Below the pieces are notes generated by a model that was not told where the DNA came from, made no database searches, and was given only the letters and a program-made list of their open reading frames with translations. From a virus: a stretch of DNA of 64,000 nucleotides. A program made the position numbers and the translations under genes. Shown here piece after piece: positions 25,433-58,703 of the stretch; the stretch's first letter is position 1, and each line of letters opens with the position of its first letter. Location: the IMG/VR virus record IMGVR_UViG_3300036791_001056, positions 82,954 through 146,953 of that record; one strand, 5' to 3'.

Positions 25433-26092
25433 GTGTTAATGATGTTCAGCGAGAGCGTGACCAGCCGGCTGGTTAACTGGAAGTTCGAGTCTGCTGAGCG
25501 GCTGATGCGCACTGAGCGGGAGCAAGAGCCGGGTAAGTATGAGGGAGATGAGTGGGACACCGTCACAGCGCTCGCGCAGACGCTCGGGAACTCGGGCTGG
25601 TTCTCCGGATCGCTCAGTGACGTCGTTCGCGCAGCGGTGGCGTGGCTGATACAGCAGCCGCTGAACGCACCAGACGATGACTCTTCCGGCAGTGAGGTCG
25701 TGACCGACTTGCTCGCAGCTGATGTCGCGCGGCGCGTTGCCCGCGAGTGCCTGGTCATCGGTGTACCGGACATTGAGCACTGGCCCGTTAACGCCAGTTC
25801 GAACTGTTGCTGTCGCGCTGGCAACAGCGGCATCGTCTGCGGTGCGTTAACTTATCGTGATTATGGAAGTGGTGAGCTGTTCACGGCAACGTGTGAGGCT
25901 GAGCTCAGCGGGCACACGCTCGCTGAGTTGCGCCAGAGCATCATCCGGCACCTGTGCAGCACCTCTCACGTCCGAGATCCATACGTGTCAGGTGGTACGT
26001 TCATGCTGAGCAGCACACCCCGTGACACCTTCAGACAGTCCGAGCCTGATCAGCCGGGCAGTGTGAGTGCACCACCGGCCGCATCATTCTGA
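25433..26092 (+). CDS. Hypothetical protein
   Basis: Continues the plus-strand operon; RBS-like GGAG. Confidence 0.55.
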   Translation: MLMMFSESVTSRLVNWKFESAERLMRTEREQEPGKYEGDEWDTVTALAQTLGNSGWFSGSLSDVVRAAVAWLIQQPLNAPDDDSSGSEVVTDLLAADVARRVARECLVIGVPDIEHWPVNASSNCCCRAGNSGIVCGALTYRDYGSGELFTATCEAELSGHTLAELRQSIIRHLCSTSHVRDPYVSGGTFMLSSTPRDTFRQSEPDQPGSVSAPPAASF

Positions 26093-26346
26093 GCATCTCT
26101 CAGCCAAGCGTAACTTAGTTAAGATGAGTGAAGACAAGCAAAACCGAGATCAGCGACAGCAAAGACAAGTGCAAGCCTAGCTTACTCAGTGATTAGCTAA
26201 GCGCAGCGCAGTTAAGATCGGCGCAGTTAAGATCGATTAAGATCAGCAAAGCAAAGCTCAGCGCGACCAAGCTGAGACCAGCACGGCAGCAGAGCCTGAT
26301 AAAGCGAAGATAAGATCAGCAGAGTGCTCAGCGCAGCGCGGCGTAG
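26092..26346 (+). ncRNA. Pentamer AGY-NN array (candidate guide RNA)
   Basis: e.g. AGC TA AGC GC AGC GC AGT TA AGA TC GGC GC AGT TA AGA TC GAT TA AGA TC AGC AA AGC AA AGC TC. Intergenic, with several in-register runs. Confidence 0.8.
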
Positions 26347-26367
26347 TCACGCCGCGCTGCTGAGCAT
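26325..26367. terminator. Hairpin closing the array between convergent genes
   Basis: CAGCGCGGCGT-AGTC-ACGCCGCGCTG, extended by TGCTCAG/CTGAGCA. Confidence 0.65.
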
Positions 26368-26375
26368 CTGAGCAG

Positions 26376-26984
26376 CTAGGGTGCTGGCGGAGTGGGCTGC
26401 TCGACCGGGGTACCCGGGGTGATGACCAGGCTCGCCGCGGTGCCCGCGACCACGTCTACGCTGATGCTGCCACTGATGTTGTTCGGGTCCGTGGCGGTGA
26501 CCACGACTCCCACCGCCGGGCTGCCCGCGATCACGGTGCACGTCAGGGTGTCCGTTGAGACGCTGAGCGTGACGGCGCTCGAGGCATCGCCACCGTTGAG
26601 CGCCGCCCCCCAGGTGAGCGTGTCAGCGGTGGGGTTGCCCTTGGAGTCCTCGGGCTCGACAACGAGATCGACCTGCTGGGTGTCGGTAAGCTGCATGACG
26701 CCATCCTTTGTGATGAGAGGTGAGCGCGCACCGGTCGACTGATCCACTGGCGCGCTGGGAGTGATCCGCAGTGCCGTCGCAAACCCGCGGTCTAGCGTGA
26801 ACTCGAACAGGTTGGTGAGAATCGCCACGGTCCGAGCCAGGTCACGGATCGCCGCGTCACCGGTGCCGGGCTGGGTGACTATGCTCGCCACCCGCACTGC
26901 CTCAGTGAGCGCCAGCTCCCTCTTGCTCTGCTCTGCCGTCAACGGCTGCTCCTCGCGGTCGGGGTTTAGTATATAGCGAAGCAT
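26376..26984 (-). CDS. Hypothetical protein with a C-terminal Ig-like beta domain
   Basis: Thr/Val-rich beta-strand pattern; downstream of terL. Confidence 0.65.
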   Translation of the reverse strand: MLRYILNPDREEQPLTAEQSKRELALTEAVRVASIVTQPGTGDAAIRDLARTVAILTNLFEFTLDRGFATALRITPSAPVDQSTGARSPLITKDGVMQLTDTQQVDLVVEPEDSKGNPTADTLTWGAALNGGDASSAVTLSVSTDTLTCTVIAGSPAVGVVVTATDPNNISGSISVDVVAGTAASLVITPGTPVEQPTPPAP

Positions 26985-27012
26985 CAGTCAGCACACCCGG
27001 ACAAGGTGCACG

Positions 27013-27321
27013 TCACGGCAACAGAGGTGAGTTTTGCTCAATCATGGGGTCCGCTGTCCTCTTCAGTGCCTCGTTATGCGCGGCGCACGCTGCCTCAGCG
27101 AGTTCGGGCGTGTCCATCATCCCGATCACGGTGTCGGCCTTCCAGTCATCTTCTCCGCCCGTCCGGGCGTAAATGGTGCGGCCGAGAGACCGGCCGGTGC
27201 GCCATGAAAGCGCAGTGAGATCAGTGGCTACGACCCTCATCCTCTCAGGAAACTCGGACGGCGCCTCCACCATCAGCCGCTTCAGGTCTCGAGGACAACT
27301 GGTGAGCCGCACTTGGGGCAC
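27013..27321 (-). CDS. Hypothetical protein (true start probably downstream)
   Basis: WRTGRSLGRTIYA...IGMMDTPELA motif. Confidence 0.55.
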   Translation of the reverse strand: MPQVRLTSCPRDLKRLMVEAPSEFPERMRVVATDLTALSWRTGRSLGRTIYARTGGEDDWKADTVIGMMDTPELAEAACAAHNEALKRTADPMIEQNSPLLP

Positions 27322-29603
27322 GTCAAGCGCGGCTGCTTAGTGGCTGGGTCAATGCTGACGAATGGGTGCTGGCAGCTCTCGCACCGGGTGACCCCGTACG
27401 CCGCCAAGAACGACCCGCCGATGAGGTCCTTCAGGGCTGAGATGGCCCAGACACACGCGTCAATCCGGTCTGGTGACTCCCCGTCCATGGGAGTCCACGC
27501 ACAGTTATGGACAAGGATCCCATTTGCAAAATACTCATGCTGCCCGGTCACCGTAATGTTGTACACCGCGCTTGGCACCGCGTTCACCTGGACGGAGTGG
27601 ACCGTGCTTTCGGCCACACTCACGTGAGCAAAACGCTGCGCGAACTCCTGTTGAGATGAACTCTTGATCACACTCAACACACTGGACCGTGATTTCTCGC
27701 TGCTTACGCCGTTGCCATGCATCAGTGCTCTTCTGCTTCTGCTGGTCTCCCCGGTATGCGTACATACCAGTGACTCGCTCAGATTTATGGTGAGAGATGT
27801 GATCATGGCGTGACAATAGCATGAGATTGCTGATGTCATTATTGTCGGGGTCGTGATCGATGTGGTGCACGTGATGCCCGTTGGGTATGGGACCGTGATA
27901 TTCTTCCCAGACGTCGCGATGGAGAAGTTTAGCGCCCCGTGACCGTGATGTGATCCAGTACGTGCCGTTCCACTTGTAATACCGCTCACCGTTGCGCTCG
28001 ATGAATGGGAACGCTGATTTTCGGCTGCGACGGGACTTCCGGCTTTCATGCACCTTGTAATCTTAGCACCAGGAACCAGCGCACCAGCGGGAACAAAGCC
28101 ACTTCCCGGGCTGAACACTGGGTGATCAGGTGTGCACGTGATGGTGTCGCCGTTTTTTGCTGTGATTGTTACGGTCCGGCGAATGCCTGTAAAGCCAGAG
28201 TGCGTGACTGGCCGCCAGCCAGCTCTCGTCATTACCAAGTCACGGCACGTTACCTGCTCAATGGGAATCTCACCACGCATGGTTGTTATTGCTGTCCCAG
28301 CGATCAAGCACATCTGGTCCTCAAGATACGGGAACGTGCCCACGTGGCTGATGCGGCGCTGCTCATACAACGATGAGATCGGCTCCGCGCGGATGGCCTT
28401 GCCGCGCGTGGCGCGCACCGCCTGGAACGGGATGTTCGGGTCCACCGTCTTCAGCAACGTCCCGATGAAGTCCCCGCCGTTGTTGACCTCCGCGACGACG
28501 CGGTCTGCCTTGAACTCATGGTACACCGCGATGACCCTCTTCATCGCCTCCATGGGTGTGGCGCGCAGCGTGAAGTCACCAAGCACGTAGCCGCGGCCGT
28601 TCTTAGCCGCACCGGCCACGATGACGCCAGTCTGGGCGCTGGCCTCGCCGTCAGTGACTGCCGGGTCCACCCCGACGACGACGCGGATGAGGTCGGGCAC
28701 CAGTGCCGGGTCGGTGACGCGGGTCTCTTCGAACCAGTCGCGCTGCCACAGCGCGCCCGGCACATCATCCAAGATCTCGGCCTCGAGCTCTTGCCGGCCG
28801 AGGCGCGTGCCCAGCAGCGGCGCGATGACGTTCTCCTGGTACTCCTTCGTCAAGTTCTCGATGTTGTCCATCGTCCGGCCGCGCGTGATCATCGTGGTCG
28901 TGCGCTGGAGAATGCCCATCCGTGATGGGTCCGGGTCACTCGTGCGCAGCAGCGCGACCGGGCGCGGCGTCGTGGCTATGACCACCTGCGTGCGGTAGTC
29001 CTCGTCCCAGCCGGTCTTCTTAGGCAGCCGCAGCGTGATGACCAGGTTGCTCCACGTGGTGTCTGCCACGAGCCCCTTGTGCGCGTCCTGCCAGAACGCG
29101 GCCTCGTCCGCCCAGGCAAAGTGGAACTGCGGCCCGCGCAGCCGCCACGGCTTCTCAGCCGAGAAGGACTTGAACCCAGACCCGTTGGCGAGCCGCACCT
29201 CACCGAGCGTGCGGTTGTACCCGTCGTCCTCCGAGTGGTTCCGGAACTCGTCACGGTTGAAGCACGCGATGAGTCCGCTCTCGCCCTCGAGCATGGTGTC
29301 ACGGGTGTCAGCAAAGGTCTTCCCGACCAGCGCAATGCGCGCTCCCGGGTAGTCACGCGCCTTCTGCGCTGCCCACTCGGCGGCAGTGCGCGACTTCCCC
29401 CAGCCTCTTCCAGCGAGAATGCACCACACGAACCACGTACCCGGCGGAGCCAGCTGCTCCGGTCGCGCGATCTCGCGCCAGGGACGCTTGATGAGCCCGT
29501 CTTCCAAGTCGCGCACCCGCTTGATCTCCTGCTGCAGCTCGCGCAGGCGCCGCAGGCGCTCGAGGCGCAGCCCGGCGAGGGAGTCCGCGGTCTTGGCTGC
29601 CAT
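27282..29603 (-). CDS. terL: Terminase large subunit with intein
   Basis: Walker A AGRGWGKS, LRGPQFHFAWADEAA, ATTPRP, nuclease VVGVDPA and SPDRIDA. Confidence 0.95.
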   Translation of the reverse strand: MAAKTADSLAGLRLERLRRLRELQQEIKRVRDLEDGLIKRPWREIARPEQLAPPGTWFVWCILAGRGWGKSRTAAEWAAQKARDYPGARIALVGKTFADTRDTMLEGESGLIACFNRDEFRNHSEDDGYNRTLGEVRLANGSGFKSFSAEKPWRLRGPQFHFAWADEAAFWQDAHKGLVADTTWSNLVITLRLPKKTGWDEDYRTQVVIATTPRPVALLRTSDPDPSRMGILQRTTTMITRGRTMDNIENLTKEYQENVIAPLLGTRLGRQELEAEILDDVPGALWQRDWFEETRVTDPALVPDLIRVVVGVDPAVTDGEASAQTGVIVAGAAKNGRGYVLGDFTLRATPMEAMKRVIAVYHEFKADRVVAEVNNGGDFIGTLLKTVDPNIPFQAVRATRGKAIRAEPISSLYEQRRISHVGTFPYLEDQMCLIAGTAITTMRGEIPIEQVTCRDLVMTRAGWRPVTHSGFTGIRRTVTITAKNGDTITCTPDHPVFSPGSGFVPAGALVPGAKITRCMKAGSPVAAENQRSHSSSATVSGITSGTARTGSHHGHGALNFSIATSGKNITVPYPTGITCTTSITTPTIMTSAISCYCHAMITSLTINLSESLVCTHTGETSRSRRALMHGNGVSSEKSRSSVLSVIKSSSQQEFAQRFAHVSVAESTVHSVQVNAVPSAVYNITVTGQHEYFANGILVHNCAWTPMDGESPDRIDACVWAISALKDLIGGSFLAAYGVTRCESCQHPFVSIDPATKQPRLTCPKCGSPVVLET
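27504..28310 (-). mobile_element. Intein in terL (269 aa)
   Basis: CLIAGTAITTMRGEIPIEQV, TCTPDHPVF, and VYNITVTGQHEYFANGILVHN followed by Cys. Confidence 0.92.
27535..28053 (-). CDS. HNH homing endonuclease in an alternative frame inside the terL intein
   Basis: LHRDVWEEYHGPIPNGHHVHHIDHDPDNNDISNL plus a CVEC...FCSREC zinc finger. Confidence 0.85.
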   Translation of the reverse strand: MHESRKSRRSRKSAFPFIERNGERYYKWNGTYWITSRSRGAKLLHRDVWEEYHGPIPNGHHVHHIDHDPDNNDISNLMLLSRHDHISHHKSERVTGMYAYRGDQQKQKSTDAWQRRKQREITVQCVECDQEFISTGVRAAFCSRECGRKHGPLRPGERGAKRGVQHYGDRAA

Positions 29604-29607
29604 GGTC

Positions 29608-31374: not shown

Positions 31375-31465
31375 TCGTGCATCTTAGTTTTGTGTGATAT
31401 AGTTATAACTAGCTAGCAGGAGCACAAAACAAGCAGATGCTCCTCAGACACAGAAAGGCGCACCT

Positions 31466-32362: not shown

Positions 32363-32364
32363 GC

Positions 32365-36510: not shown

Positions 36511-36819
36511 ATGAGCGCTCGCCAGCAGTATGAAGAACTGCTCAAGGCGTTGAGCCGTGGCCAGACCGCTGAAGAGGCGCTGCGTGAGCTGCAAATCAAG
36601 AGGCATAAGAAGCTCATCACCAAGAAGACTTGGCTCTTGGTGCTGGTCAGCACCATCACACAGTTCTGGTGGGCGCAACTCGTGGTCTGGGGCCTGAGCA
36701 TGCTAAGTGTAAGCACGGGCATCTGGCCCATCTGGCTGATCATGGAGGGCGTCAGCAGCATGCTCGTCGCAACAGTCACACTCGGCATGATGTACGCGGT
36801 GCGAGACACGAGGGGATGA
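36511..36819 (+). CDS. Membrane protein
   Basis: Two hydrophobic segments. Confidence 0.55.
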   Translation: MSARQQYEELLKALSRGQTAEEALRELQIKRHKKLITKKTWLLVLVSTITQFWWAQLVVWGLSMLSVSTGIWPIWLIMEGVSSMLVATVTLGMMYAVRDTRG

Positions 36820-37397
36820 AGATGACTGAAGACACCGGCCACTCGTGGCCATTCCGCCAGGCAGAGCACGGCAGCTGGACTGAGCTCTTCCAGGCTGACT
36901 GCGACCGCAACGCCGGCATGCCGATAGAGCTCATCTCAGCTGAGGTCTACGCTCAGCGCGAGGGCATGACGCGCGAGGCTCACATCATCCGGGTCCTCCG
37001 CGCTGACCGCGAGCGGCGGCAGGCAGAGGCACAGCTGGTGAGTGACCGCGTGCTGCTCGACGGCGTCATCGACTCGGCCCGCGCGGCCGAGATGACCGTC
37101 GTGGAGTACATCACGTCTGACCAGTTCTTGCCCAAGTGCACCAGCCGCCCGCGCCGCACGTGGGACATCAGCCCGGACTTCCTCGCTCAGCTGCTCACAC
37201 GGGTCGAGGAGCGCCAGCGCACCGCCATCGTCACAGCACCAGCGTGTGCTGGCTCTGGCCAGCCGTGGTCCGGCAAGATCTACCCCATGTGCCCAGTGTG
37301 CGAACATAGCTGGGAAGACTTGAACGTAATGAAGCCCAAGATCAGTCAAGTGATTGAGAGCTGGTGGGTAGGTAATGTTCCTGCTCACGCCGACTAA
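36816..37397 (+). CDS. Hypothetical protein
   Basis: ATGA coupling; C-terminal C...CPVC. Confidence 0.55.
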   Translation: MKMTEDTGHSWPFRQAEHGSWTELFQADCDRNAGMPIELISAEVYAQREGMTREAHIIRVLRADRERRQAEAQLVSDRVLLDGVIDSARAAEMTVVEYITSDQFLPKCTSRPRRTWDISPDFLAQLLTRVEERQRTAIVTAPACAGSGQPWSGKIYPMCPVCEHSWEDLNVMKPKISQVIESWWVGNVPAHAD

Positions 37398-37403: not shown

Positions 37404-37468
37404 GGCACAGCACAACACAGCACTGCGCAGCAGAGAACAGATCAGCACAGCAGACCGCAGCTCAGCGT
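37404..37468 (+). ncRNA. Pentamer AGY-NN array, 13 units
   Basis: GGC AC AGC AC AAC AC AGC AC TGC GC AGC AG AGA AC AGA TC AGC AC AGC AG ACC GC AGC TC AGC GT. Confidence 0.75.
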
Positions 37469-37498
37469 GAGCGGCTAGCAAGTGCTAGCCGCTCACGC
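37465..37498. terminator. 16-bp perfect hairpin between convergent genes
   Basis: GCGTGAGCGGCTAGCA-AG-TGCTAGCCGCTCACGC. Confidence 0.75.
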
Positions 37499-37504: not shown

Positions 37505-37831
37505 TTACGGGTTGATGGTCAGCGCCACGTCCTGCAGCACCGGCACCGTCGGGCTGTCGGTGATCTTCACCCACACCAGCCACGTGCCCTGCGCCAAGAT
37601 CACTCCGCCGTTGGCCGGGCCCACGAGGCACTGCGCCCAGTACGCTGGGCCGGGGAACGTGGCCCACGAGCCGGTGGTCCACGCTGCCGGCTCCACGTTC
37701 GGCAGCGCGGCGGTGGTGAACGCGAACTGCACTTGATCGCTGGTGGGATCATACCCGGCAGGCGACTTGACGATGATCTGCACCTGCAGGTAGTCGGTCG
37801 ACAGCGCTGACTGGGTCACACTGATCACCAC
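37505..37831 (-). CDS. Virion/baseplate-like small beta protein
   Basis: DPTSDQVQFAF...CLVGP...GTWLVWVKITDSPTVPV, a type seen beside actinophage tail-fibre genes; GAGGAGG RBS. Confidence 0.6.
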   Translation of the reverse strand: MVISVTQSALSTDYLQVQIIVKSPAGYDPTSDQVQFAFTTAALPNVEPAAWTTGSWATFPGPAYWAQCLVGPANGGVILAQGTWLVWVKITDSPTVPVLQDVALTINP

Positions 37832-40820: not shown

Positions 40821-40873
40821 GAGTGGGCTGCCTTTCGCTGGTGCAGAACGACTCTGCCAGTTTTCCGAGCATG

Positions 40874-40909
40874 CAAAAGGCCGTGAGCAGGTTAAGATGC
40901 TCACGGCCT
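40874..40909 (-). terminator. Terminator after the array
   Basis: AGGCCGTGAGCA-TCTTAACC-TGCTCACGGCCT-TTT on the minus strand. Confidence 0.75.
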
Positions 40910-40912
40910 GAT

Positions 40913-40957
40913 GCTGTGCTTAGCTATATTACGCTTTAATTTTCTGAGCTCAGCCTT
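40913..40957 (-). ncRNA. Short pentamer AGY-NN array, about 9 units
   Basis: Plus strand gctgt gctta gctat attac gcttt aattt tctga gctca gcctt. Confidence 0.6.
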
Positions 40958-40980: not shown

Positions 40981-41298
40981 TCAGTGCTGAGCAGCCTCCA
41001 GCGGAGAGCTGAACCGCTCGATAGCAGCGGTCACACGATCACGCATGCCCATGATGAAGGCATCCGTGTCAGTGCTCACCGGCGCTGAGCCCACGAGCGC
41101 ATCACTCTTGAGAGAGAAGCGCTGGTCCAGGCGGACAGCAGCAGCGAGCTCTGTGGCCCACCGTGGGTCGGCATCGCTGTGCGCGTCGCGCCAGCCCGCC
41201 GCTGAGTCAGCGACTCCCCAGCCGATGAGCGCGGCTACGCTGATGGCCAAGATGATGATCATGACGATGAGTGCGGTGATCATGCTCGGCACACCCAC
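40981..41298 (-). CDS. Membrane protein
   Basis: N-terminal transmembrane helix. Confidence 0.55.
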   Translation of the reverse strand: MGVPSMITALIVMIIILAISVAALIGWGVADSAAGWRDAHSDADPRWATELAAAVRLDQRFSLKSDALVGSAPVSTDTDAFIMGMRDRVTAAIERFSSPLEAAQH

Positions 41299-48214: not shown

Positions 48215-48892
48215 CTAGCGAACTATACCACAGAATGGGCACTGGAGCAGGTTAACCGCCTCATCGAGCCTCTTCCATGCGTGCTGGAAGATCACGAACT
48301 GGATCTGAGTGGCGTTGCCCTTCAGCCAGAACGCCGTGTAGAAGTGCCCGGCGATGAGCCGGTTGGTCCCGCTGAGGAAGTAGTGATGAAAGTGCGGGAC
48401 CGACACCGTCCACTTGCTGTCCCGCCACTCGTGAAAGTACAGGACCGTCTTGATCTCCTCCGCCGGGTGATGCAGCACGTCCAGCGTGCGAACGTGCTTG
48501 TCCGTCACCCCGGTCTGGCCAATGCTGAAGTCGGGGTGCGCCGCCAGGCTGATGGCGCCGACATTGAAGACCTTCTTCGTCGGGTCGACGACCCGGTAGG
48601 CGAACCACTCTTGCCACGCGCTCTTCGGCAGACACGGCGCCCACCACACCTCAGATCGGTCAGACGGGTTATCGACCGACGTCAGACACCAGTTATTGTG
48701 CTCGAACGGGTGAACCTGCCCCGTGGTCGTGAACACCTCATGCACATGCGGCACCACGCTCACCGCAGCGCTCGCCGGGGTGATCGCCGGGGTGATCGCC
48801 GCGCAGCTCGCTGCCGCGCTGAGCGCGACCGCTGCCGCCAGCCCTTGCCACTTACTTGTCTTCATCGAGCTCCTCATTTCTCTGGTCATCAC
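48215..48892 (-). CDS. Secreted protein, ricin-like segment
   Basis: Signal peptide; WCLTS...WWAPC...QEW. Confidence 0.55.
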   Translation of the reverse strand: MMTREMRSSMKTSKWQGLAAAVALSAAASCAAITPAITPASAAVSVVPHVHEVFTTTGQVHPFEHNNWCLTSVDNPSDRSEVWWAPCLPKSAWQEWFAYRVVDPTKKVFNVGAISLAAHPDFSIGQTGVTDKHVRTLDVLHHPAEEIKTVLYFHEWRDSKWTVSVPHFHHYFLSGTNRLIAGHFYTAFWLKGNATQIQFVIFQHAWKRLDEAVNLLQCPFCGIVR

Positions 48893-49339: not shown

Positions 49340-49359
49340 AGCTTCGCACCTCTCTGAAG

Positions 49360-49419
49360 GCTCTGCTTTGACACGCTATGCTCGTCTTTGCCATGCTTGT
49401 CTTTGCTGCGGATAGTTGA
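49360..49419 (-). ncRNA. Pentamer AGY-NN array, 12 units
   Basis: Plus strand gctct gcttt gacac gctat gctcg tcttt gccat gcttg tcttt gctgc ggata gttga; fills an intergenic gap. Confidence 0.7.
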
Positions 49420-49420: not shown

Positions 49421-50137
49421 TCAGACCCGGATGACGCTGGCGCGCCGCGCCGCGACCGAGTTGCTGGCGCCCGCCGGGGCCTCACCCACCTCGGACGCTG
49501 CAGCCGGGCCGTGATCGCGCTGCCGGGTGAGCGCCGCCAGCGCTTGGTCAATGCTCCCGGCGAGCTCATCACCCACGCTCTCACCGTTGATCATGAGCTG
49601 GAACGGGTGATCTCGCGGCATGCCCCAGCGCCTGTGCCCCATCAGGGCCAAGAAGAACCGGACGGCGTTCGCGTCATCATACTGGATCCCGATGACCCAC
49701 TTCCGGCCGTCACAGCCGCGCTGGACCGGCAGCCCGGTGCGCCGGCTGAACACCGCTGTGAAGTGCTGGACCTCCGCCGGCACCCGCTGCCCGTCATCTG
49801 GCGGCACTGAGTGCAGCGCGCCGCGCATAAGCTCTGGCTGCTGCCACACGTCGATGAAGTAGTCTTGATCACGCCGGAACGCGAACTCCTCACCGTCCAC
49901 CCACACCGTGGCTCCGGCCGGCGCCGCATCAGCGCTCCGGTACCGCGCCTCGAGCCGGACGCGCTCCCCGGTGACGGTGACGACCCACAGGCCTGCCTGC
50001 CGGCAGATCTCTGGGATCACCCCCGTGTACCTCGCCAGGAACGTCATCAGCTTCACCAGTGAGCTCGGCACCAGCTGATCAGCGGGCCCCTTGGGCTTGG
50101 AGCTCACAACTCCATCCTTCCAAGATCTCGAAGTCAC
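49421..50137 (-). CDS. Hypothetical protein
   Basis: Long ORF on the operon strand. Confidence 0.55.
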   Translation of the reverse strand: MTSRSWKDGVVSSKPKGPADQLVPSSLVKLMTFLARYTGVIPEICRQAGLWVVTVTGERVRLEARYRSADAAPAGATVWVDGEEFAFRRDQDYFIDVWQQPELMRGALHSVPPDDGQRVPAEVQHFTAVFSRRTGLPVQRGCDGRKWVIGIQYDDANAVRFFLALMGHRRWGMPRDHPFQLMINGESVGDELAGSIDQALAALTRQRDHGPAAASEVGEAPAGASNSVAARRASVIRV

Positions 50138-50598: not shown

Positions 50599-50644
50599 CA
50601 CCTCCGCTCAGCTCGTGTACATTATACCATAAGCGGGCCCAGCA

Positions 50645-51211
50645 TCAGTCATGCGCATACTCCTCGACCTTGATGCTCACCCGGCTCACCGTGATCCGAG
50701 CGTGATCGCCGAAGTGCTCAAGCAGCACGTCATCAAACGCGCCGGAGCCGAGAGCACTCTGCAGCGCGAGGCACCGGTCAAAGCGCGCTTCGTCTGGCCC
50801 GCTGTACTTACTCGTCTTATAATCGCGCTTCCCGAGCGCACCACTGGGCTGGATCCCGTCCCAGACGTTCTCCGCGATCTCATCGCGCTGGGTGTGACGG
50901 GCTGCGCCGCACATGCCGCAGTACAGCTCCTGCTCGGTAAGCGAGTGCTGGCACTGCTGGCACTCAGCGGCCGCGGTGACGTCGCTGATGACCGGCATGA
51001 CCGCGAGGCTCTCGTATACGTTGAAGATGCAGGGCTCACCGTCATTGAAGTACGGCGTGTACTGGTACCACCCGAACCACTCGATGCCGTCGTCATCGAG
51101 CAGCGCCTGCATGAGCGGCGCCAGCTCATCGAGCGGGCGCTGCGGGACGCGGGAGTCCCCCCGGCAGATCTCACCGTCCACTGGGATCCCGAGAAAGCTG
51201 GTGTGACTCAC
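50645..51211 (-). CDS. Conserved hypothetical protein
   Basis: AAGGAG RBS; W.QYTPYFNDGEPC.F...FGDHA.ITV. Confidence 0.7.
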   Translation of the reverse strand: MSHTSFLGIPVDGEICRGDSRVPQRPLDELAPLMQALLDDDGIEWFGWYQYTPYFNDGEPCIFNVYESLAVMPVISDVTAAAECQQCQHSLTEQELYCGMCGAARHTQRDEIAENVWDGIQPSGALGKRDYKTSKYSGPDEARFDRCLALQSALGSGAFDDVLLEHFGDHARITVSRVSIKVEEYAHD

Positions 51212-51242
51212 TTCTGCGCTCCTTTTCTCTCTAATGACTGCA

Positions 51243-51340
51243 GCTGTCCTGTGCTGAGTTAACACTGGGCTATGCAATGCACCGGTGAGCTGAACTTTGC
51301 TAGACTTCTCTACGCTCCTGGCTGGCTGAAGCTGAGCTAA
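51243..51340 (-). ncRNA. Pentamer AGY-NN array
   Basis: Plus strand actgg gctat gcaat gcacc ggtga gctga acttt gctag acttc tctac gctcc, plus flanking units. Confidence 0.65.
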
Positions 51341-51504
51341 GGAAAACTTACATCGAGCGGTGCGCTGGCTCGACGGATACCACCGTGAGTGACCGCGCCC
51401 AGATGGACGGCAGCACCCGCTCGGTGCCCTGCTCCGGGGCACCGGCCCCGCTGAATGAGTTGCCATTCGAATACGTGAGCATCTGCTCTGCCTCTCGTCT
51501 TGGA

Positions 51505-51610
51505 ACTGCGCTGAGCTGAACCTACGGTTAGCTTGACTTAGCTAGACCGAGCTGATCTACGCTCCACTGATCCACGCTGATGTATGCTAAGCTGAGCTAC
51601 TCTCTGCTGT
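51505..51610 (-). ncRNA. Pentamer AGY-NN array, 18 units in register plus 3
   Basis: Plus strand cctac ggtta gcttg actta gctag accga gctga tctac gctcc actga tccac gctga tgtat gctaa gctga gctac tctct gctgt. Confidence 0.8.
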
Positions 51611-51698: not shown

Positions 51699-52271
51699 TC
51701 ACGCACGCTCATCACCCTCAGCTATCTTCACATCGTCATGGCGATGGAGACGCGCATGCTCCAGCTCGATGTCACGCGTTGATATGAGCACAAAGTCGTG
51801 CCCGGCGGGGTACCGGTCGTGATCATGGTGCATGTGCTCGATGAGCGCGCTGCGGTCACCCACCAGTGACCGCAGGTGATCGGCTGCGCTCACCTCAGCC
51901 GCCACTGATAGGCCGAGCGTGCTGAGCCGCTGCTCACGCATCTTTGCCCCGCTCATCCACGGCTTGATGGGCATTCCGCTAATGTAGTCACCCGGCGTGG
52001 GCAGCCAGCCCAAGTCCTCGAGAATGTGCTGCTCCGCGATGAGCCGCACCGGCACCTCGATGAGCCCGCCCGAGGTCTTCTCGAGGTCAACGACCCGGCC
52101 AAACACGCGCTGGCAGAGCCACACGCCGTACGTGTTGTGGAACAGCGCCCGGTGCCGGACGTCGCCCACGAACTGCTTGGAGCTGTCGATCAGCTCTTCG
52201 ATGGCGATGTAGTCGCTCGGATCACCTCCCCACTTCTTAGCGGCTGACCGAGCGTGATACCACGAGTTCAC
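51699..52271 (-). CDS. DUF6915-like protein
   Basis: HARSAAKKWGG...DSSK...D.RHRAL.H...VPVRLIAEQHILEDLG. Confidence 0.7.
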   Translation of the reverse strand: MNSWYHARSAAKKWGGDPSDYIAIEELIDSSKQFVGDVRHRALFHNTYGVWLCQRVFGRVVDLEKTSGGLIEVPVRLIAEQHILEDLGWLPTPGDYISGMPIKPWMSGAKMREQRLSTLGLSVAAEVSAADHLRSLVGDRSALIEHMHHDHDRYPAGHDFVLISTRDIELEHARLHRHDDVKIAEGDERA

Positions 52272-52555
52272 AGCTCCACCCACTCGCTCTCAGCCAGCCG
52301 CAGCCCGGTGCTCGCCAAGACTGCCCACACGTTCGCGGCGCTCAGCTCATCTTCATCACCAGTTCCCGGCCGCATGCTCTCGCTCACCGCGAGCACCACG
52401 CGGCCGATGACCGCGTCACTCACGTCGGGCAGCGCTCGGCGCAGCTCATCAGCAATGGCTGGTGCGATCGTGCCCCACTGCTCTGGGGTGTGCACTGCCA
52501 AGATGTCCGCGAGGGAGCGGAGCTGCGCTCGCTGGACCACTCCGTAAGAATTCAC
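52268..52555 (-). CDS. Hypothetical protein
   Basis: GGAGG RBS; coupled. Confidence 0.5.
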   Translation of the reverse strand: MNSYGVVQRAQLRSLADILAVHTPEQWGTIAPAIADELRRALPDVSDAVIGRVVLAVSESMRPGTGDEDELSAANVWAVLASTGLRLAESEWVEL

Positions 52556-54346: not shown

Positions 54347-55000
54347 TCATGCTACCGGATCACTCTCTGACTCGTGGCCAACGCAGAAGTCAGGCCCATT
54401 CTCCGGCTCGCAGTCCAGGGTGTGCGGCGGCGCCGGCAGGTCGCGCTCGCCGCGCTCCTCCCAGCCGATGCTCCGGCCCAGGTTGAGCACCTGCCCGATG
54501 AGGCTCTTGACGGCGAGCTCCGCGCGGCTCTCCTCAGCGCGCTCCGGGATCCGGAGGTGCGCCAAGATCTGGCTGGCGAGGTCATCGAGGCGCAGCCGGT
54601 CAGCATCAGCTCCAGGAGCGTCATCGAGACCTCGGTCACGCATGATGCCCCAGAGCGGGCCCGCGGTGAACTCGACGGCGCTGGCCCACTCTTCACCGCG
54701 CAGCTCACGGATGAGCAGGTGGATAACCGCGGCGTACGGGTGATCGACCGCCTTGCGGAACGCGGTGTGGAAGCCTTCTCCCAGCAGCGAGAAGAACGTG
54801 TCGTAACCGACCGGTGAGCCGGCCACAGACTCCTCCGAGCGCCGCTGGCTGTAGCCCGCAGCACTGCCCTGATTCCAAGCTGAGTGAATGACCCGCCTCA
54901 TCAGCCGGTCACGCTCCACGCCGCTGCAGGCGTTCTCAGCGACCTGCAGCGCCTGGTGAATGAGAGCGCGCTGCTGCTCAGCGTCAGCGAGGCTAGCCAC
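54347..55000 (-). CDS. Hypothetical protein
   Basis: Long ORF on the operon strand. Confidence 0.55.
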   Translation of the reverse strand: MASLADAEQQRALIHQALQVAENACSGVERDRLMRRVIHSAWNQGSAAGYSQRRSEESVAGSPVGYDTFFSLLGEGFHTAFRKAVDHPYAAVIHLLIRELRGEEWASAVEFTAGPLWGIMRDRGLDDAPGADADRLRLDDLASQILAHLRIPERAEESRAELAVKSLIGQVLNLGRSIGWEERGERDLPAPPHTLDCEPENGPDFCVGHESESDPVA

Positions 55001-55292
55001 GGTGAGTCACCGCCGTCACGGCCGCCGCCTCCTGGCGCTCCAGCCAGAACTTCGCGCCGTTGATCTCGAGCTCGATGCGCCCGTCACTGGGTGTGTTCCG
55101 GTAGATAGCATCAGCCAGCTCGCTGGCACCGGCCTGGAACCTGGCCACGATCGCGATGACGCGGCTCTTACCGAGCCGGGCGCCCGGGATGCGCTCTCGG
55201 CGGAGCATGACCGCACCGGCCTGCAGGCGGTCGATGCAGCTGCTCAGCTCGCGCGGCAGCCGGCGCATCGATCCCGCGAAGTCTTCATGCAT
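54993..55292 (-). CDS. Hypothetical protein
   Basis: GAGGAG RBS. Confidence 0.5.
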   Translation of the reverse strand: MHEDFAGSMRRLPRELSSCIDRLQAGAVMLRRERIPGARLGKSRVIAIVARFQAGASELADAIYRNTPSDGRIELEINGAKFWLERQEAAAVTAVTHRG

Positions 55293-55353
55293 CTGGCTCT
55301 CTCCTCTCCACTTCCTTATTTAGTATTGACGGCGCGTCAGCGGGTGGTGCCTA

Positions 55354-55626
55354 TCACCATCCGTCCTTCCAGAACAGTGACCCGGCCTCATCGAGGCCAC
55401 CCAGCCACCGCGGCAGCCGGACGCGCGGCGCGGCGTAGCCAGCCAGCACCCACAGCGCGCTGAGCGTGGTAGGCGCCGTCCGCACCGCGGCGAGACCGCT
55501 CTCAGATGTCGAGCAGCCGCCTGACCACCTCCGGCGGACAGCCGGGGGGATCCGGCGGTACACCACGACCAGCGCGACCAGCGCGCGCTGAGTCACACTC
55601 ACCTTACGCACCACTTCACTCCTCAT
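55354..55626 (-). CDS. Hypothetical protein, weak YidD-like pattern
   Basis: LVVVYRRI.P...CS.S..GL.AV. Confidence 0.4.
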   Translation of the reverse strand: MRSEVVRKVSVTQRALVALVVVYRRIPPAVRRRWSGGCSTSESGLAAVRTAPTTLSALWVLAGYAAPRVRLPRWLGGLDEAGSLFWKDGW

Positions 55627-55767
55627 CTTCCTCAGTTCCCTGGTCAGCCACGCCCGCCAAGAGCTCAGCGGCGGCCAAGTCGTGAGCGCGCTGCATGTTC
55701 ATCGCGAACACCTCACTCAGCGAGTGCTTCTGGCCGCACCAGCAGCCAATGTGCCGGTGAAGTAGGC

Positions 55768-56184
55768 TCACGATGACTTTGACTCTGCTGAGCTGGCCGT
55801 TGTGACGATGTCATCCTGGCGCAGCACAGCGGAGATGTCGCGCTGATCACTCACTGAGAGCGTGGCAGTGATGTCACCCAGCGTCATGCCCATGTCGAAC
55901 TCACGCAGCAGCGTGACGATGGCCCGCAGCCTCAGCAGCGCCGAGCAGGTGCGCTCCCGCTCGGCGATCTGCCGGGCAGCCGCCTCGAAGCCCTTGCGGT
56001 AGCCGCGCTCCTCGGTGAAGATCTCAAGGACCACGAGAGCGTCCTCGACTGCCCGCTGCTCCGCGTGAACGAAGTCACGGTGCATGCTCCCGCCGTATCC
56101 CGAAGTAGCCTTGACGACGCGCTGGATCTCACTGTACGCGGCCACCGTCTCACGGCTCATGGTCCGCGTCACCTCTCGCGCCAC
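55768..56184 (-). CDS. Hypothetical protein
   Basis: GAGGAG RBS; -10 TGTGGTATAGT near 56341-56351. Confidence 0.55.
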   Translation of the reverse strand: MAREVTRTMSRETVAAYSEIQRVVKATSGYGGSMHRDFVHAEQRAVEDALVVLEIFTEERGYRKGFEAAARQIAERERTCSALLRLRAIVTLLREFDMGMTLGDITATLSVSDQRDISAVLRQDDIVTTASSAESKSS

Positions 56185-56366
56185 CTGCGTTCTCCTCTCT
56201 GCTCTGTTCCTGTTTTATTAGCGCGCCACTGAGCTGTGAGGCTCAGTGGCGCCAGAACGTTCTTGCTAACTCCACGGTCCCACGGTACATCCCTTCGCTC
56301 GGGAGTAAGAACTGCCACATTCAACTGCGTTCAAATAGTGACTATACCACACGCGCTGCCGGCTGG

Positions 56367-57050
56367 CTAGTCACCGGCGCTCGCTGGCGCTGATCGCGCG
56401 GCGGCCGCGTTCTTCAGCCCCTGCCGGTACTCACGCATCCGCCGCCGCTTACACTCCTTGCACTGGTAATCGACACCTGACGGGCGCTTGGTGTTCCGCC
56501 AGAAGGCGTCGCGCGGCAGGTCAGTCTTCTTACACGGCCCGCTGCAGCTGAACAGCTGTGCTATGAGGAAGCCCTGCTCATCGCGTGCTCCGTCCGGCGG
56601 CTCGGTCTCCAGCTGGCCGACAGGCACAGCCAGGGCGGCCACGACGTCACCGAGCGCCTCAGCCGGCACCTGACTCACGACAGCCGGCAGCACGGCGCCG
56701 CTCTGGCGGCGAGCGCTCACGACGGCCGCGGCGAGCGGCGCTGACGGCATGCTGGAGATGAGCTGCAGCTGCCGCCTGACCGCGGCGGACTGAGCCAGCG
56801 AGATGCCCGCTGCGGGCAGCGGGGCCTGCGGGGTCCCAGCCCACTGCGTGACTGCCCGCCGGCACCGGCTGTCGGTGTAAGCGTCGATGACGTGCATCAG
56901 CCGGGAGACGAATACCGGGTCGCAGTGCCATCCCAGCGTCTGCCACACCGCTGCTTCAACCGTCTCCCGGTTGACGACGGTACTGCCCGGCACCAAGTCG
57001 AGAGCCCGAGAGAGCAGGGGCCGCCTCGTTGATCGCATGATTAACGGCAA
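56367..57050 (-). CDS. Hypothetical protein with C-terminal zinc finger
   Basis: CSGPC...F...QCKECK. Confidence 0.6.
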   Translation of the reverse strand: MPLIMRSTRRPLLSRALDLVPGSTVVNRETVEAAVWQTLGWHCDPVFVSRLMHVIDAYTDSRCRRAVTQWAGTPQAPLPAAGISLAQSAAVRRQLQLISSMPSAPLAAAVVSARRQSGAVLPAVVSQVPAEALGDVVAALAVPVGQLETEPPDGARDEQGFLIAQLFSCSGPCKKTDLPRDAFWRNTKRPSGVDYQCKECKRRRMREYRQGLKNAAAARSAPASAGD

Positions 57051-57096
57051 CCTTTATCATCAGCGTGCTGAGTGATCAGCAGCTCTTTTTTAATTC

Positions 57097-57225
57097 GGTG
57101 ATCTGTGCTCTGCTGTGGTATTCTCGGACAGGCTTAGCTCAGCTTAACTACGCCATGCGGTGCTGCGGTATGCTAATCTTACAGGCTCAGCTTTACTGCG
57201 CCAGTGCCGGTTGCGGTGAGATCAG
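57097..57225 (-). ncRNA. Pentamer AGY-NN array downstream of the RAMP partner gene
   Basis: 17 in-register units at 57097-57181 (ggtga tctgt gctct gctgt ggtat tctcg gacag gctta gctca gctta actac gccat gcggt gctgc ggtat gctaa tctta), plus a shifted run. Confidence 0.8.
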
Positions 57226-57231
57226 AAGATG

Positions 57232-57789
57232 TCACCTGCCACGCGGCCAGGCTGGCTGTTTCACTGGCCGCTCGTACCGGCTCGTGATGACCTCGCCATC
57301 AACTGGCGCCGCCGGCTCAGCCTCTCCGAACAGCGCTGCCTCGATGCGCTCAATGCGGTCTTCAACCGCCGTCATCCGGCGGTGCAGGCCCACGATGATG
57401 GTCCGCGTCGCCATGAAGCGCTGGTACTCCGAGTCCGTCATGCCGGTCGTGTCACCGTGAGTCACGACCTCGAGGGCGCGGCCCATCTGCCGGTCGGCCC
57501 GCATCCGGTGACCCTGCGCCACCACGGCCAGCTCGCTCGGCTTGCCGACCCGGTAGCCCTGGCCGCGCGCCGCGATGAGGACGCGGCCGTAATCACGCAG
57601 CAGCAGTGGGCGAGCGGCGGTGACGGCGGCGCGGATGACGGTCTTGAGATCCGGGTCACCGCTGATGCCCAGGGACTGGGCGAGGTGCTCGAAGGTGAGC
57701 AGCTGGCCGAAGGCTGCCTCAGCGGCGATGCTGGCGATGATGGACCGCTGAGAGCGGTCTCCCTTAGGCTGGAATCGTGTCATGGTCAC
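57232..57789 (-). CDS. Winged-helix-like + coiled-coil protein in the RAMP operon
   Basis: LLTFEHLAQSLG...LIAARGQGYRV wing motif; flanked by arrays on both sides. Confidence 0.65.
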   Translation of the reverse strand: MTMTRFQPKGDRSQRSIIASIAAEAAFGQLLTFEHLAQSLGISGDPDLKTVIRAAVTAARPLLLRDYGRVLIAARGQGYRVGKPSELAVVAQGHRMRADRQMGRALEVVTHGDTTGMTDSEYQRFMATRTIIVGLHRRMTAVEDRIERIEAALFGEAEPAAPVDGEVITSRYERPVKQPAWPRGR

Positions 57790-57830
57790 TTCCTGTGTTC
57801 CTAACTCAGTTCCTGGTGTGATGCGCCGTA

Positions 57831-57970
57831 CCTGTACTGCGCTTTTCTGCGCTGAGCTTTACTCCACTTAGCTGATCTTATCTTAACCCTGCTGATCACA
57901 GCTAGGCTGTGCTCTGGTTAGCTCTGCTAAGCTACTGTGTGCTGATGCTTCGCCTACGCTTAGCTTAGTT
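57831..57970 (-). ncRNA. Pentamer AGY-NN array directly after the RAMP gene, 21 units in perfect register
   Basis: Minus strand AGC TT AGC AG AGC TA ACC AG AGC AC AGC CT AGC TG TGA TC AGC AG GGT TA AGA TA AGA TC AGC TA AGT GG AGT AA AGC TC AGC GC AGA AA AGC GC AGT AC AGG. Confidence 0.85.
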
Positions 57971-57976
57971 ATGTGA

Positions 57977-58600
57977 TCAGCTCGTGATCTTGGAGATCTC
58001 CGGCGTGAAGCGCCCGTAGCCAATGCGCCGGGCGTTGCACAGGCCCTGCCGGCCGGTGATCTCCATGATGGTGACGAAGTCGTCCCAGTTGATGGCGTCG
58101 AGCATGACGACCATCTCGGACCGCAGCGCCCAGTCGCGGAAGATCGGCCGGACCCGGACGCCCATCGACCTGGTCGCGGTGGTCGGAGTGAGGTTCACGA
58201 TGGTCTTGAACTGGAAGCGCGAGTCCTCCCAGAGTCCCTTGATGGTGCGCGGCCCATCGTACATGATGGGCAGCTCAGCCTGCACGAGCTGGACGGCGCC
58301 GCGCTCGATGGCCTTGCCGAGGCGCAGGGCCCGAGCTGCCTGCGTCATCGCGGCCATCACGCACTTCGCCGGGACGATCGGGATCCCGGCGCCGTCGGTG
58401 TACAGGCCCATCCGCCACTCCAGGGCGAACACCTGCTCCTGCTCGGCCTCGGTGAGCCCCTTCTTCTTAACGAGCGCGTCCTTGTCCTTCCGCAGCGGGT
58501 CGATCATCGCCTCGATGTTGTCGAGGACCAAGCCGCTCTCACCGGTGAAGACCACGTTGGCCCGGGTGAACCCCTCGAAGGTGGACGTTGCTGCTGGCAT
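57977..58600 (-). CDS. Stand-alone Cas7/RAMP-like protein (Vipr-like)
   Basis: First strand VVFTGESGLVL; PIVPAKCVMAAM (equivalent to the RAMP IPGSSIKG helix); RVRPIFRDW; C-terminal glycine loop GLCNARRIGYGRF. No cas1/cas2 or CRISPR array in the window. Confidence 0.75.
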   Translation of the reverse strand: MPAATSTFEGFTRANVVFTGESGLVLDNIEAMIDPLRKDKDALVKKKGLTEAEQEQVFALEWRMGLYTDGAGIPIVPAKCVMAAMTQAARALRLGKAIERGAVQLVQAELPIMYDGPRTIKGLWEDSRFQFKTIVNLTPTTATRSMGVRVRPIFRDWALRSEMVVMLDAINWDDFVTIMEITGRQGLCNARRIGYGRFTPEISKITS

Positions 58601-58628
58601 CTCTGCTCCATTCGCTGGTGTGCTGGGT

Positions 58629-58703
58629 GCTGAACTGAGCTGAGCTCAGCCGTTCTTCACTGAGCTTAGCTGGGCTAGGACATGCTCTGGCCTGCTGTGC
58701 TAG
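58629..58703 (-). ncRNA. Pentamer AGY-NN array forming the 5' leader of the RAMP gene, 15 units
   Basis: Plus strand gctga actga gctga gctca gccgt tcttc actga gctta gctgg gctag gacat gctct ggcct gctgt gctag. Confidence 0.8.

What the first reader, a model, noticed from the sequence alone, without database searches (positions are those of the whole stretch)
26092..58703. Arrays are dispersed genome-wide and always read AGY-NN on the transcribed strand
Besides the three arrays at the RAMP locus, there are arrays at 26092 (+), 37404 (+), 40913 (-), 49360 (-), 51243 (-) and 51505 (-). All are intergenic, most begin within a few nt of a stop codon, and their polarity flips with the local genes. 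Strand-locked polarity argues for function as RNA rather than as DNA sites. It suggests a distributed guide repertoire, up to about 32 kb from the effector, riding on different operons and so on different expression times.
Basis: partly seen in the sequence, partly recalled or inferred. Interest (0 to 1): 0.88.

Follow-up and report, generated by a model that had tools for sequence, protein, structure and literature searches.

The report
Scattered VIPR guide-RNA arrays in phage
The five-base AGY-NN repeat tracts scattered through this 147-kb phage are real, lie almost always on the transcribed strand, and are most likely extra guide RNAs for the phage's single VIPR protein (a CRISPR-related DNA silencer described in 2026); no target was found.

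Summary
Observation confirmed. The complete 146,953-bp phage genome holds 30 arrays of at least 6 AG[C/T/A]-NN pentamers (337 units). First-order Markov shuffles give 0. Twenty-nine arrays lie sense to the upstream gene or tRNA; the one exception has its own promoter and hairpin.

The "RAMP" at window 57977-58600(-) is a Vipr protein. It has a Cas7-like fold (Z 10.9) and is homologous to Felixounavirus, Gordonia and Mycobacterium phage Viprs that sit beside canonical GGY-NN arrays. A vap1 homologue follows it. This is the VIPR system of bioRxiv 10.64898/2026.04.26.720920.

The first repeat base is A instead of G. The two residues that read G1 in SUSP1 Vipr (H17, D177) are replaced here by D27 and N189. 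They are also replaced in 15 other AGY-associated Viprs, while the G2-contacting Arg is kept.

In the canonical VIPR genomes checked, arrays lie only next to vipr. Here one vipr gene faces arrays up to about 64 kb away, in 3' UTRs before hairpins, in 5' UTRs and between tRNAs.

Guide function is inferred, not shown. No target appeared in the phage itself, in relatives, or in IMG/VR, GTDB or metagenome scans.

This scan has already noted dispersed VIPR arrays in at least five other phage genomes. I class it as a new variant of a known kind.

The parts
26092..26327 (+). Orphan AGY-NN tract of about 47 units. In-phase blocks are 26092-26156, 26195-26284 and 26288-26327, with out-of-phase units between them. 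It starts on the stop codon of ORF 25433-26092 and includes a 15-nt tandem duplication at 26206-26235.
26324..26367 (+). Strong hairpin directly after the tract, terminator-like, facing the convergent gene 26376-26984(-).
   Evidence: -35.6 kcal/mol, z -5.0
37409..37468 (+). Orphan 12-unit AGY-NN array, 12 nt after the stop of gene 36630-37397.
37465..37498 (+). Hairpin that begins inside the last unit of the array.
   Evidence: -33.3 kcal/mol, z -6.8
40911..40950 (-). Orphan 8-unit array, 31 nt after the stop of gene 40981-41298(-).
40873..40914 (-). Hairpin followed by a U-run, directly after the array.
   Evidence: -29.1 kcal/mol, z -8.0
49358..49407 (-). Orphan 10-unit array, 14 nt after the stop of gene 49421-50137(-) and just before the next start.
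51287..51316 (-). Orphan 6-unit array in the probable 5' UTR of gene 50645-51211(-).
51529..51608 (-). Orphan 16-unit array downstream of gene 51699-52283(-). The syntenic gap in relative L001 is only 62 nt and holds no array.
57100..57149 (-). 10-unit array after vap1; further units lie upstream to about 57184.
57232..57789 (-). vap1 homologue, 185 aa, phrog_5926.
   Evidence: BLASTP 4e-18 to the gene after vipr in phage LittleE and 7e-6 to VpaE1_086
57834..57943 (-). 22-unit array between vipr and vap1.
57977..58600 (-). vipr, 207 aa. Stand-alone Cas7-like RAMP and the only copy in the genome. It carries D27, N189 and A190 in place of SUSP1 H17, D177 and W178; R151 corresponds to R138.
58627..58701 (-). 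15-unit leader array between the promoter and the vipr ribosome-binding site.
58712..58720 (-). TGGTATAGT extended -10 promoter motif, one of about 25 such motifs in the genome, lying 10 nt before the leader array.

Best explanation
The dispersed tracts are additional vrRNA-type RNAs of the phage's own VIPR system.

The single Vipr protein (window 57977-58600, minus strand) has a repeat-reading pocket adapted to A-G-Y instead of G-G-Y. By homology with the published filament, it would coat any transcript segment made of AGY-NN pentamers, one protomer per pentamer. That would hide AGY and present the variable NN pairs. (Inferred.)

The tracts are not clustered beside vipr with a conserved tail. 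They are embedded in many transcription units:
- 3' UTRs just before terminator hairpins;
- 5' UTRs;
- spacers between tRNAs, where RNase P and RNase Z would release them;
- one stand-alone promoter-array-hairpin gene.

The loaded filaments would then bind matching gapped DNA sequences in rival mobile elements or the host and silence them, as shown for SUSP1 VIPR.

Shown here: the arrays, their strand lock, the Vipr and Vap1 homology, and the covariation between protein residues and repeat grammar. Inferred: transcription and processing, loading, and DNA targeting.
For: 1. The arrays are non-random and strand-locked. There are 30 arrays against 0 in Markov nulls, and 29 of 30 are sense.

2. 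The RAMP is a Vipr.
- An AF2 model (pLDDT 95) matches Csm3, Cmr4 and type VII Cas7 (Foldseek E 1e-6; VIA Z 10.9 and 10.7).
- tblastn finds homologues in 132 phage records. Four homologue loci I opened (VpaE1, Trine, LittleE and the distant relative P0011) carry GGY-NN arrays, and 10 of the 11 IMG/VR loci carry GG-first arrays (five GGY; six near-identical contigs read GGA-NN).
- The downstream gene is a vap1 homologue.

3. Protein and RNA co-vary. VpaE1 Vipr carries exactly the residues named in the cryo-EM preprint 10.64898/2026.04.26.720927 (H17, R138, D177, W178).
- All 10 members of the window's clade have D, R, N, A at these positions. The rest of the family has H in 98 of 123 and D in 98 of 123.
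- The four clade loci whose DNA could be read carry AG arrays.
- In 15 further IMG/VR Viprs found only through AGY arrays, the H17 and D177 positions are never H and D, while R138 is always kept.

4. The dispersed arrays have the same unit profile as those flanking vipr, and the same position-3 to position-5 composition as bona fide GGY arrays of high-GC phages.

5. The context fits an RNA.
- The leader array and the stand-alone array (genome 2966-3045) start about 10 nt after TGNTATAGT promoters.
- Three window arrays abut hairpins of -29 to -36 kcal/mol.
- Three intervals between tRNAs in the tRNA cluster hold arrays.

6. There is only one vipr in a genome rated 100% complete. It has the highest GC3 of all called genes.

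7. Relative L067 also has AG arrays in nearly every intergenic gap of its 6.3-kb contig.
Against: - No target was found.
  - Within the phage, best matches equal those of shuffled guides for skip 0, 1 and 2, and nothing lies within 4 kb of any array.
  - Nothing was found in six related loci, under six word and skip rules.
  - IMG/VR gave zero exact 10-unit matches.
  - Seeds of 8-9 units in IMG/VR, GTDB genomes and metagenomes extended only at chance level.
- There is no conserved 3' tail after the tracts, unlike published vrRNAs. The hairpins differ in sequence and look like ordinary terminators.
- NN composition fits no codon frame of this phage's genes better than a uniform model does. Canonical arrays show the same bias, however.
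Confidence: 0.62

Rival explanations
1. The dispersed tracts are cis-acting Vipr-binding sites rather than DNA guides. Vipr filaments would form on UTRs and tRNA spacers of the phage's own transcripts. There they could protect the transcripts from host RNases, mark processing sites, or throttle translation of the gene downstream. The leader array could autoregulate vipr in this way.
For: - Most tracts lie inside operons, directly before a ribosome-binding site or directly after a stop codon.
- No target could be found.
- There is no conserved tail.
- The array sequences do not align between relatives, as expected if only AGY is under selection.
Against: - The NN pairs show the same composition as guide-bearing canonical arrays.
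- The stand-alone promoter-array-hairpin unit has no gene to regulate.
- The published Vipr filaments are DNA-targeting machines.
- Failure to find targets is expected when neither the host nor rival phages are in the databases.
Confidence: 0.2
2. The tracts are decoys or sponges. They would soak up Vipr protomers, either the phage's own to set the dose or those of a co-infecting AG-type rival, without directing them to any target.
For: - Satellites are reported to encode solo vrRNAs that redirect a helper phage's VIPR (10.64898/2026.10.15.759431).
- The 337 units are a large sink for a single protein gene.
Against: - The published decoys still guide the complex to DNA sites.
- A pure sponge has no need of high NN diversity (3.79 bits).
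- A pure sponge has no need to be placed in many separate operons.
Confidence: 0.07
3. The tracts have nothing to do with Vipr. They could be unstructured spacer RNA, RNase E or Rho-related signals, or DNA-level sites. One DNA-level idea is a run of GCT primase triplets on the complementary strand.
For: - Strand polarity also follows two large genome domains, + from 10.9 to 120.4 kb and - elsewhere. A replication-linked DNA signal is therefore not strictly excluded.
- AG-C fits the R-N-C preference recalled for mycobacterial RNase E. This is from my own memory and was not tested.
Against: - The grammar is identical to that of the arrays flanking vipr.
- It tracks the Vipr pocket residues across clades.
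- In IMG/VR, high-entropy AGY arrays sit beside a Vipr gene in 16 of about 20 loci, while low-entropy ones are microsatellites.
- The + array at genome 2966 lies inside a - domain and has its own promoter.
- No Rfam family matches the window.
Confidence: 0.06

Closest known systems
Type II-like VIPR system (vipr + vap1 + vrRNAs), type example Escherichia phage SUSP1; bioRxiv 10.64898/2026.04.26.720920 and 10.64898/2026.04.26.720927
   Same: - A stand-alone Cas7-like Vipr followed by a vap1 homologue.
- Pentamer arrays (constant trinucleotide plus variable NN) upstream of and between these genes, on the same strand.
- The G2-contacting Arg is conserved.
- The system is phage-encoded.
- No self-targets, as reported for the published systems.
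   Different: - The repeat is AGY-NN, not GGY-NN, and the G1-reading residues are replaced (H17 to D, D177 to N, W178 to A).
- There is no conserved 3' tail or pseudoknot.
- Most arrays lie far from vipr, up to about 64 kb away, inside other operons and between tRNAs.
- Targets are unknown.
Non-canonical VIPR repeat units (YNNNG, NNNNG; GAC/NN, CAC/NN, WGT/NN, TGH/NN); bioRxiv 10.64898/2026.04.26.720920 methods and 10.64898/2026.10.21.760802
   Same: - A 5-nt period with an altered constant trinucleotide, beside a Vipr-like fold.
- AGY overlaps the reported WGT class.
   Different: - Here C dominates position 3 (64%).
- As far as I read those reports, they describe arrays adjacent to the protein gene.
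- I did not find in them the link between pocket residues and repeat base.
Solo (orphan) vrRNAs of F5 satellites and vipr-null SUSP1-like phages; bioRxiv 10.64898/2026.10.15.759431
   Same: vrRNA tracts that are not next to a vipr gene.
   Different: - Those lie on elements that lack vipr. They sit at the old vipr locus or on satellites, number 1-2 per element, and have the canonical tail.
- Here the same genome encodes the cognate Vipr and carries about 27 distant tracts.
Ribozyme-interspersed vrRNA arrays (types I and V; 10.64898/2026.04.26.720920, fig. S19 legend)
   Same: Repeat tracts separated by self-processing or processed RNA elements that would set the ends of the tracts.
   Different: Here the separators are tRNA genes (genome 38306-38802), so host RNase P and RNase Z would do the cutting. 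This is inferred.
Class 1 CRISPR Cas7 backbone filaments (Csm3, Cmr4)
   Same: RRM/RAMP fold, glycine-rich loop, thumb, and one protomer per fixed RNA step.
   Different: - A 5-nt rather than a 6-nt step.
- No CRISPR repeats, no Cas5, Cas6 or Cas10, and no adaptation genes.
- The guide is interrupted every unit.

Membership tests
VIPR system | Vipr protein: small stand-alone RAMP (RRM core, G-loop, thumb) outside any CRISPR-Cas locus | tested here: met
   - AF2 pLDDT 95.
- Foldseek top hits are Csm3 and type VII Cas7, E 1e-6.
- VIA Z is 10.9 to Cmr4 and 10.7 to Csm3.
- The C-terminus has a GYGRF loop.
- No Rfam CRISPR repeat in the window.
VIPR system | Sequence homology to characterised Vipr proteins | tested here: met
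   - tblastn to Felixounavirus VpaE1 gp087 gives E 5e-4 over 91% of the protein. That protein carries H17, R39, K82, R138, D177 and W178, exactly as named for SUSP1 Vipr.
- Gordonia phage Trine, 7e-16; Mycobacterium phage LittleE, 1e-12.
- phrog_4652, 5.7e-20.
- A profile search finds 2,521 representatives.
- SUSP1 itself was not fetched.
VIPR system | vap accessory gene next to vipr | tested here: met
   The 185-aa gene at 57232-57789(-) falls in phrog_5926, together with the genes downstream of vipr in VpaE1 and LittleE. BLASTP gives 4e-18 and 7e-6.
VIPR system | Tandem 5-nt units, constant trinucleotide plus hypervariable NN, flanking vipr on its strand | tested here: met
   Arrays of 15, 22 and 10 or more units lie before vipr, between vipr and vap1, and after vap1. 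NN entropy is 3.79 bits.
VIPR system | Canonical GGY constant trinucleotide | tested here: not met
   The units are AGY (A 89% at position 1). Both G1-reading residues are substituted to match. Non-canonical trinucleotides are reported in the family (10.64898/2026.10.21.760802), so this sets a subtype rather than excluding membership.
VIPR system | Conserved structured 3' tail after each repeat tract | tested here: not met
   The sequences downstream of 26 array blocks share no motif. Five end in unrelated GC-rich hairpins, and the others run into a ribosome-binding site or a tRNA.
VIPR system | vrRNAs are expressed as about 100-nt RNAs and co-purify with Vipr | not testable with these tools
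VIPR system | NN strings match natural DNA targets under the 1-nt-skip rule | tested here: inconclusive
   No match above shuffled-guide level was found in the phage itself, in related loci, or in IMG/VR, GTDB genomes or metagenomes. The host and rival phages are unknown, and the collection scans needed exact seeds.
Solo/orphan vrRNAs (vipr-null elements) | The element carrying the vrRNA lacks vipr | tested here: not met
   The same complete genome encodes one vipr.

The most novel reading that the evidence does not exclude
This phage has taken the VIPR guide store apart and spread it through the genome.

- About 30 tail-less AGY-NN tracts ride on early, middle, late and tRNA transcripts. The guide set therefore changes with the infection programme.
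- Ordinary RNA ends (terminators, RNase P/Z cuts at tRNAs) replace the dedicated vrRNA tail.
- The switch from G to A at repeat position 1, matched by the H17D and D177N changes in the pocket, would make these guides unreadable by rival GGY-type Viprs, and GGY guides unreadable by this Vipr.
Probability: 0.35. Interest if true: 0.8.

Novelty: new variant of a known kind. Interest (0 to 1): 0.62.

Why it matters
VIPR was described only in 2026, from loci where the guides sit beside the protein gene and were surveyed in 20-kb windows. This genome suggests three things.

- Local surveys may undercount guides. One Vipr may serve about 30 tracts across 147 kb, including tracts released from a tRNA cluster.
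- A dedicated tail may be dispensable.
- Repeat grammar and the protein's base-reading pocket change together. H17 and D177 are lost wherever G1 becomes A, while R138 and G2 are kept. This gives a testable specificity code and a possible way for co-infecting phages to keep their guide pools separate.

All three points can be tested with small-RNA-seq, Vipr pull-down and pocket-swap mutants.

Tried and rejected
- **TRAP-like, Hfq, CsrA and Rho ideas.** These came from my first look at the 5-nt period. I dropped them once the VIPR preprints and the Vipr homology were found.
- **Single-sequence AF2 model.** It was useless (pLDDT 37). The model built with an alignment was used instead.
- **Pfam.** Nothing for vipr or vap.
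- **Targets within the phage.** None under skip 0, 1 or 2.
- **"Guide sits beside its own resistant allele".** This pattern, noted elsewhere in this scan, is not seen here. Best matches within 4 kb of each array have uniform p-values. Nothing was found in the rival alleles available in L001, L003, L067, L088, L138, L104 and L189-L191.
- **Alternative pairing words.** N3N4N5 with skip 0-2 gave nothing.
- **Collection scans.** Three 10-unit exact patterns in IMG/VR gave 0 hits. Seeds of 8-9 units in IMG/VR, GTDB genomes and metagenomes gave 11, 5, 12 and 20 hits, and all extended at about 25% identity, which is chance.
- **Codon-frame fit of NN composition.** No frame beats a uniform model. Canonical arrays show the same bias, so this argues neither way.
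- **Rfam.** No family in the window.


Full report
**Setting.** The window is bases 82954-146953 of a single-contig virus record of 146,953 bp. The record is rated 100% complete. It has 64% G+C and 40 tRNA genes, 39 of them in one cluster at 33.0-41.5 kb. The host is unknown. The large terminase is at most 45% identical to any deposited phage, and most matches are actinophages. A relative's locus carries a DUF397 gene; from memory this domain is commonest in Streptomyces and other actinomycetes, which I did not test.

With a chain caller (AG[C/T/A] every 5 nt, one miss allowed, at least 6 units), the whole genome has 30 arrays and 337 units.

- First-order Markov shuffles give 0 arrays, and mononucleotide shuffles give 0-1 clusters.
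- Unit positions 1-3 are constrained: A 89%, G 87%, then C 64% / T 21% / A 14%.
- The last two positions are nearly free, with 3.79 of 4 bits of entropy.
- On a GC3-based gene map plus tRNAs, every array is intergenic. The one apparent overlap (51287-51316) lies upstream of the likely true start, GTG 51211 after AAAGGAG. The PHROG match to that ORF begins only at residue 89.
- Twenty-nine of 30 arrays lie sense to the upstream gene or tRNA.
- The exception (genome 2966-3045, + strand) starts about 10 nt after a TGATATAGT promoter motif and ends at a hairpin. It is therefore a small transcription unit of its own. The same slot, in the same divergent orientation, is occupied by an array in relative L001.

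**What the "RAMP" is.** A full-text search for pentanucleotide repeats in phages led to the VIPR preprints. These describe phage-encoded stand-alone RAMP proteins (Vipr). One protomer binds each 5-nt unit of a GGY-NN repeat RNA (vrRNA), hides GGY and presents NN. The complex then recognises double-stranded DNA in which every third base is skipped.

The 207-aa protein at 57977-58600(-) belongs to this family on several grounds.

- Its AF2 model, built with a 133-sequence alignment, has pLDDT 95. It matches Csm3, Cmr4 and type VII Cas7 (Foldseek E about 1e-6; VIA Z 10.9 and 10.7).
- tblastn finds it in 132 phage records.
- At three of these loci, and at the locus of the distant relative P0011, the gene is flanked by textbook GGY-NN arrays: Felixounavirus VpaE1, Gordonia phage Trine, Mycobacterium phage LittleE and L068. 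Of 11 IMG/VR loci, ten carry GG-first arrays on the vipr strand. Five of these read GGY, and six near-identical contigs read GGA-NN.
- The next gene (57232-57789) is homologous to the gene after vipr in LittleE and VpaE1, that is, vap1 (phrog_5926).
- There is only one vipr in the genome.

**The AGY grammar matches the protein.** The cryo-EM preprint states that G1 of GGY is read by H17 and D177, and that G2 is held by R138 and W178. VpaE1 Vipr has exactly these residues at these numbers, so it serves as a ruler.

- All ten members of the window's clade have D, R, N, A at these positions.
- In the other 123 aligned family members, H occurs 98 times and D 98 times.
- The four clade loci whose DNA I could read (the window, L001, L003, L067) all have AG-first arrays. 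The nearest protein outside the clade that keeps H and D (P0011) has GGC arrays.
- As an independent test, I scanned IMG/VR for nine perfect AGY-NN units. Among the 80 loci read, low-entropy hits were microsatellites without Vipr. High-entropy arrays sat beside a Vipr-profile hit in 16 loci.
- In 15 Viprs found this way, the H17 and D177 positions are S/G, N/T, N/N, A/G or N/A, never H/D. The Arg that contacts the retained G2 is always present.

So the change from G to A at repeat position 1 goes with loss of the two G1-reading side chains in several separate clades. This ties the AGY tracts to this protein far more firmly than neighbourhood alone.

**What is unusual here.** In the canonical or AGY-type VIPR genomes and loci I could check, arrays form one cluster within about 2 kb of vipr, often at a regular spacing of about 110 nt that reflects array plus tail.

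- These were the whole Trine genome, three IMG/VR records of 46-101 kb whose match positions were listed, and 16 AGY loci.
- For VpaE1 and LittleE, only whole-record counts on a single strand were returned.

In this phage only three arrays flank vipr and vap1. The rest lie 6 to about 64 kb away, measured around the genome ends, which are contiguous in L001. In the window they fall into two settings.

- Three lie between a stop codon and a strong hairpin: 26092-26327, 37409-37468 and 40911-40950. The hairpins are -29 to -36 kcal/mol, z -5 to -8.
- Three lie between co-directional genes: 49358-49407, 51287-51316 and 51529-51608.

Outside the window, arrays lie in three intervals between tRNAs. 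They almost fill the gaps tRNA-Lys/tRNA-Arg and tRNA-Arg/tRNA-Arg (genome 38389-38722), and a third array lies in the tRNA-Leu/tRNA-Ile interval (37750-37804). No conserved tail follows the tracts.

Dispersal seems to be a trait of the clade, but a variable one. L067 has AG arrays in nearly every gap of its 6.3-kb contig. L001 has a 62-nt gap where the window has the 51529 array. Array sequences do not align between relatives whose genes are 70-82% identical in nucleotides.

The preprints I read describe solo vrRNAs only on vipr-less satellites and phages, and ribozyme-separated arrays. They do not use the words dispersed, orphan or tRNA for a vipr-positive genome. This scan's own earlier notes report scattered VIPR arrays in at least five other phages.

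**Mechanism.** The tracts are most likely transcribed as parts of their operons, of the tRNA cluster, or from their own promoter. Vipr would coat them, and their ends would be set by terminators, RNase P and RNase Z, or trimming of uncoated flanks. They would then act as gapped DNA guides. Every step after [quoted passage not shown] is inference.

**Weak point.** I could not find a target.

- Within the phage, best matches equal those of shuffled guides.
- No near-target lies within 4 kb of any array.
- Nothing appeared in the related loci under six word and skip rules.
- Exact 10-unit patterns have no match in IMG/VR.
- Seeds of 8-9 units in IMG/VR, GTDB genomes and metagenomes extend at chance level.

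These searches have little power, because the host and rival phages are unknown and the collection scans allow no mismatch. NN composition fits no codon frame, but canonical arrays of high-GC phages show the same A/T-rich bias. A cis-regulatory or protective role of Vipr coating therefore remains a live rival, at about 0.2.

**Verdict.** The finding is a new variant of a known kind: an AGY-type, tail-less, genome-wide dispersed VIPR repertoire.

Noticed in passing
window 58712-58720(-), 56341-56349(-), 50621-50629(-), 48222-48230(-), 4160-4168(+), 31395-31403(+), and others: About 25 copies of an extended -10 motif, TG[GA]TA[TA]A[GA]T, lie in front of genes and of two arrays. This is probably the main promoter class read by the host polymerase.
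   Followed up: partly
window 57977-58600(-): vipr has the highest third-codon-position G+C (0.94) of all 175 called genes. This would fit a protein needed in large amounts.
   Followed up: no
window 26206-26235(+): A perfect 15-nt tandem duplication (three units, GCGCAGTTAAGATCG) lies inside the array. Tracts may grow by duplicating units.
   Followed up: no
window 56367-57050(-) and 60252-61835(-): A 227-aa protein after vap1 has a C-terminal Lar-like/endonuclease VII-like zinc module (phrog_5558, E 1.6e-5). A UvrD-like SF1 helicase lies 1.6 kb upstream of vipr. Both are syntenic in L001 and L003, so they may be further accessory genes or may simply be neighbours.
   Followed up: partly
L189:7915-11134 (Logan SRR33232069, 45.7-kb contig): A homologue (63% aa) of window gene 26376-26984 is followed, convergently, by staggered GG-type pentamer arrays. 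More arrays lie 1-3 kb away, and there is no Vipr-profile hit in the 20.5 kb read. This is the same slot as the window's 26092-26327 tract, but with the other repeat grammar.
   Followed up: partly
genome 37750-38722 (outside the window; G000:C1): AGY-NN tracts occupy three intervals between tRNAs: Leu/Ile, Lys/Arg and Arg/Arg. tRNA processing would release them as separate small RNAs.
   Followed up: partly
window 50645-51466(-): The longest ORF is probably over-extended. GTG 51211, preceded by AAAGGAG, matches the start of the PHROG alignment (residue 89).
   Followed up: yes
L088 (IMGVR_UViG_3300032892_000011): A more distant relative (genes 50-70% aa identical to genome 80-85 kb) has a Vipr with N/R/N/A pocket residues and AGY arrays. 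There the locus sits in a different genomic neighbourhood, so the VIPR module appears to move between positions.
   Followed up: no
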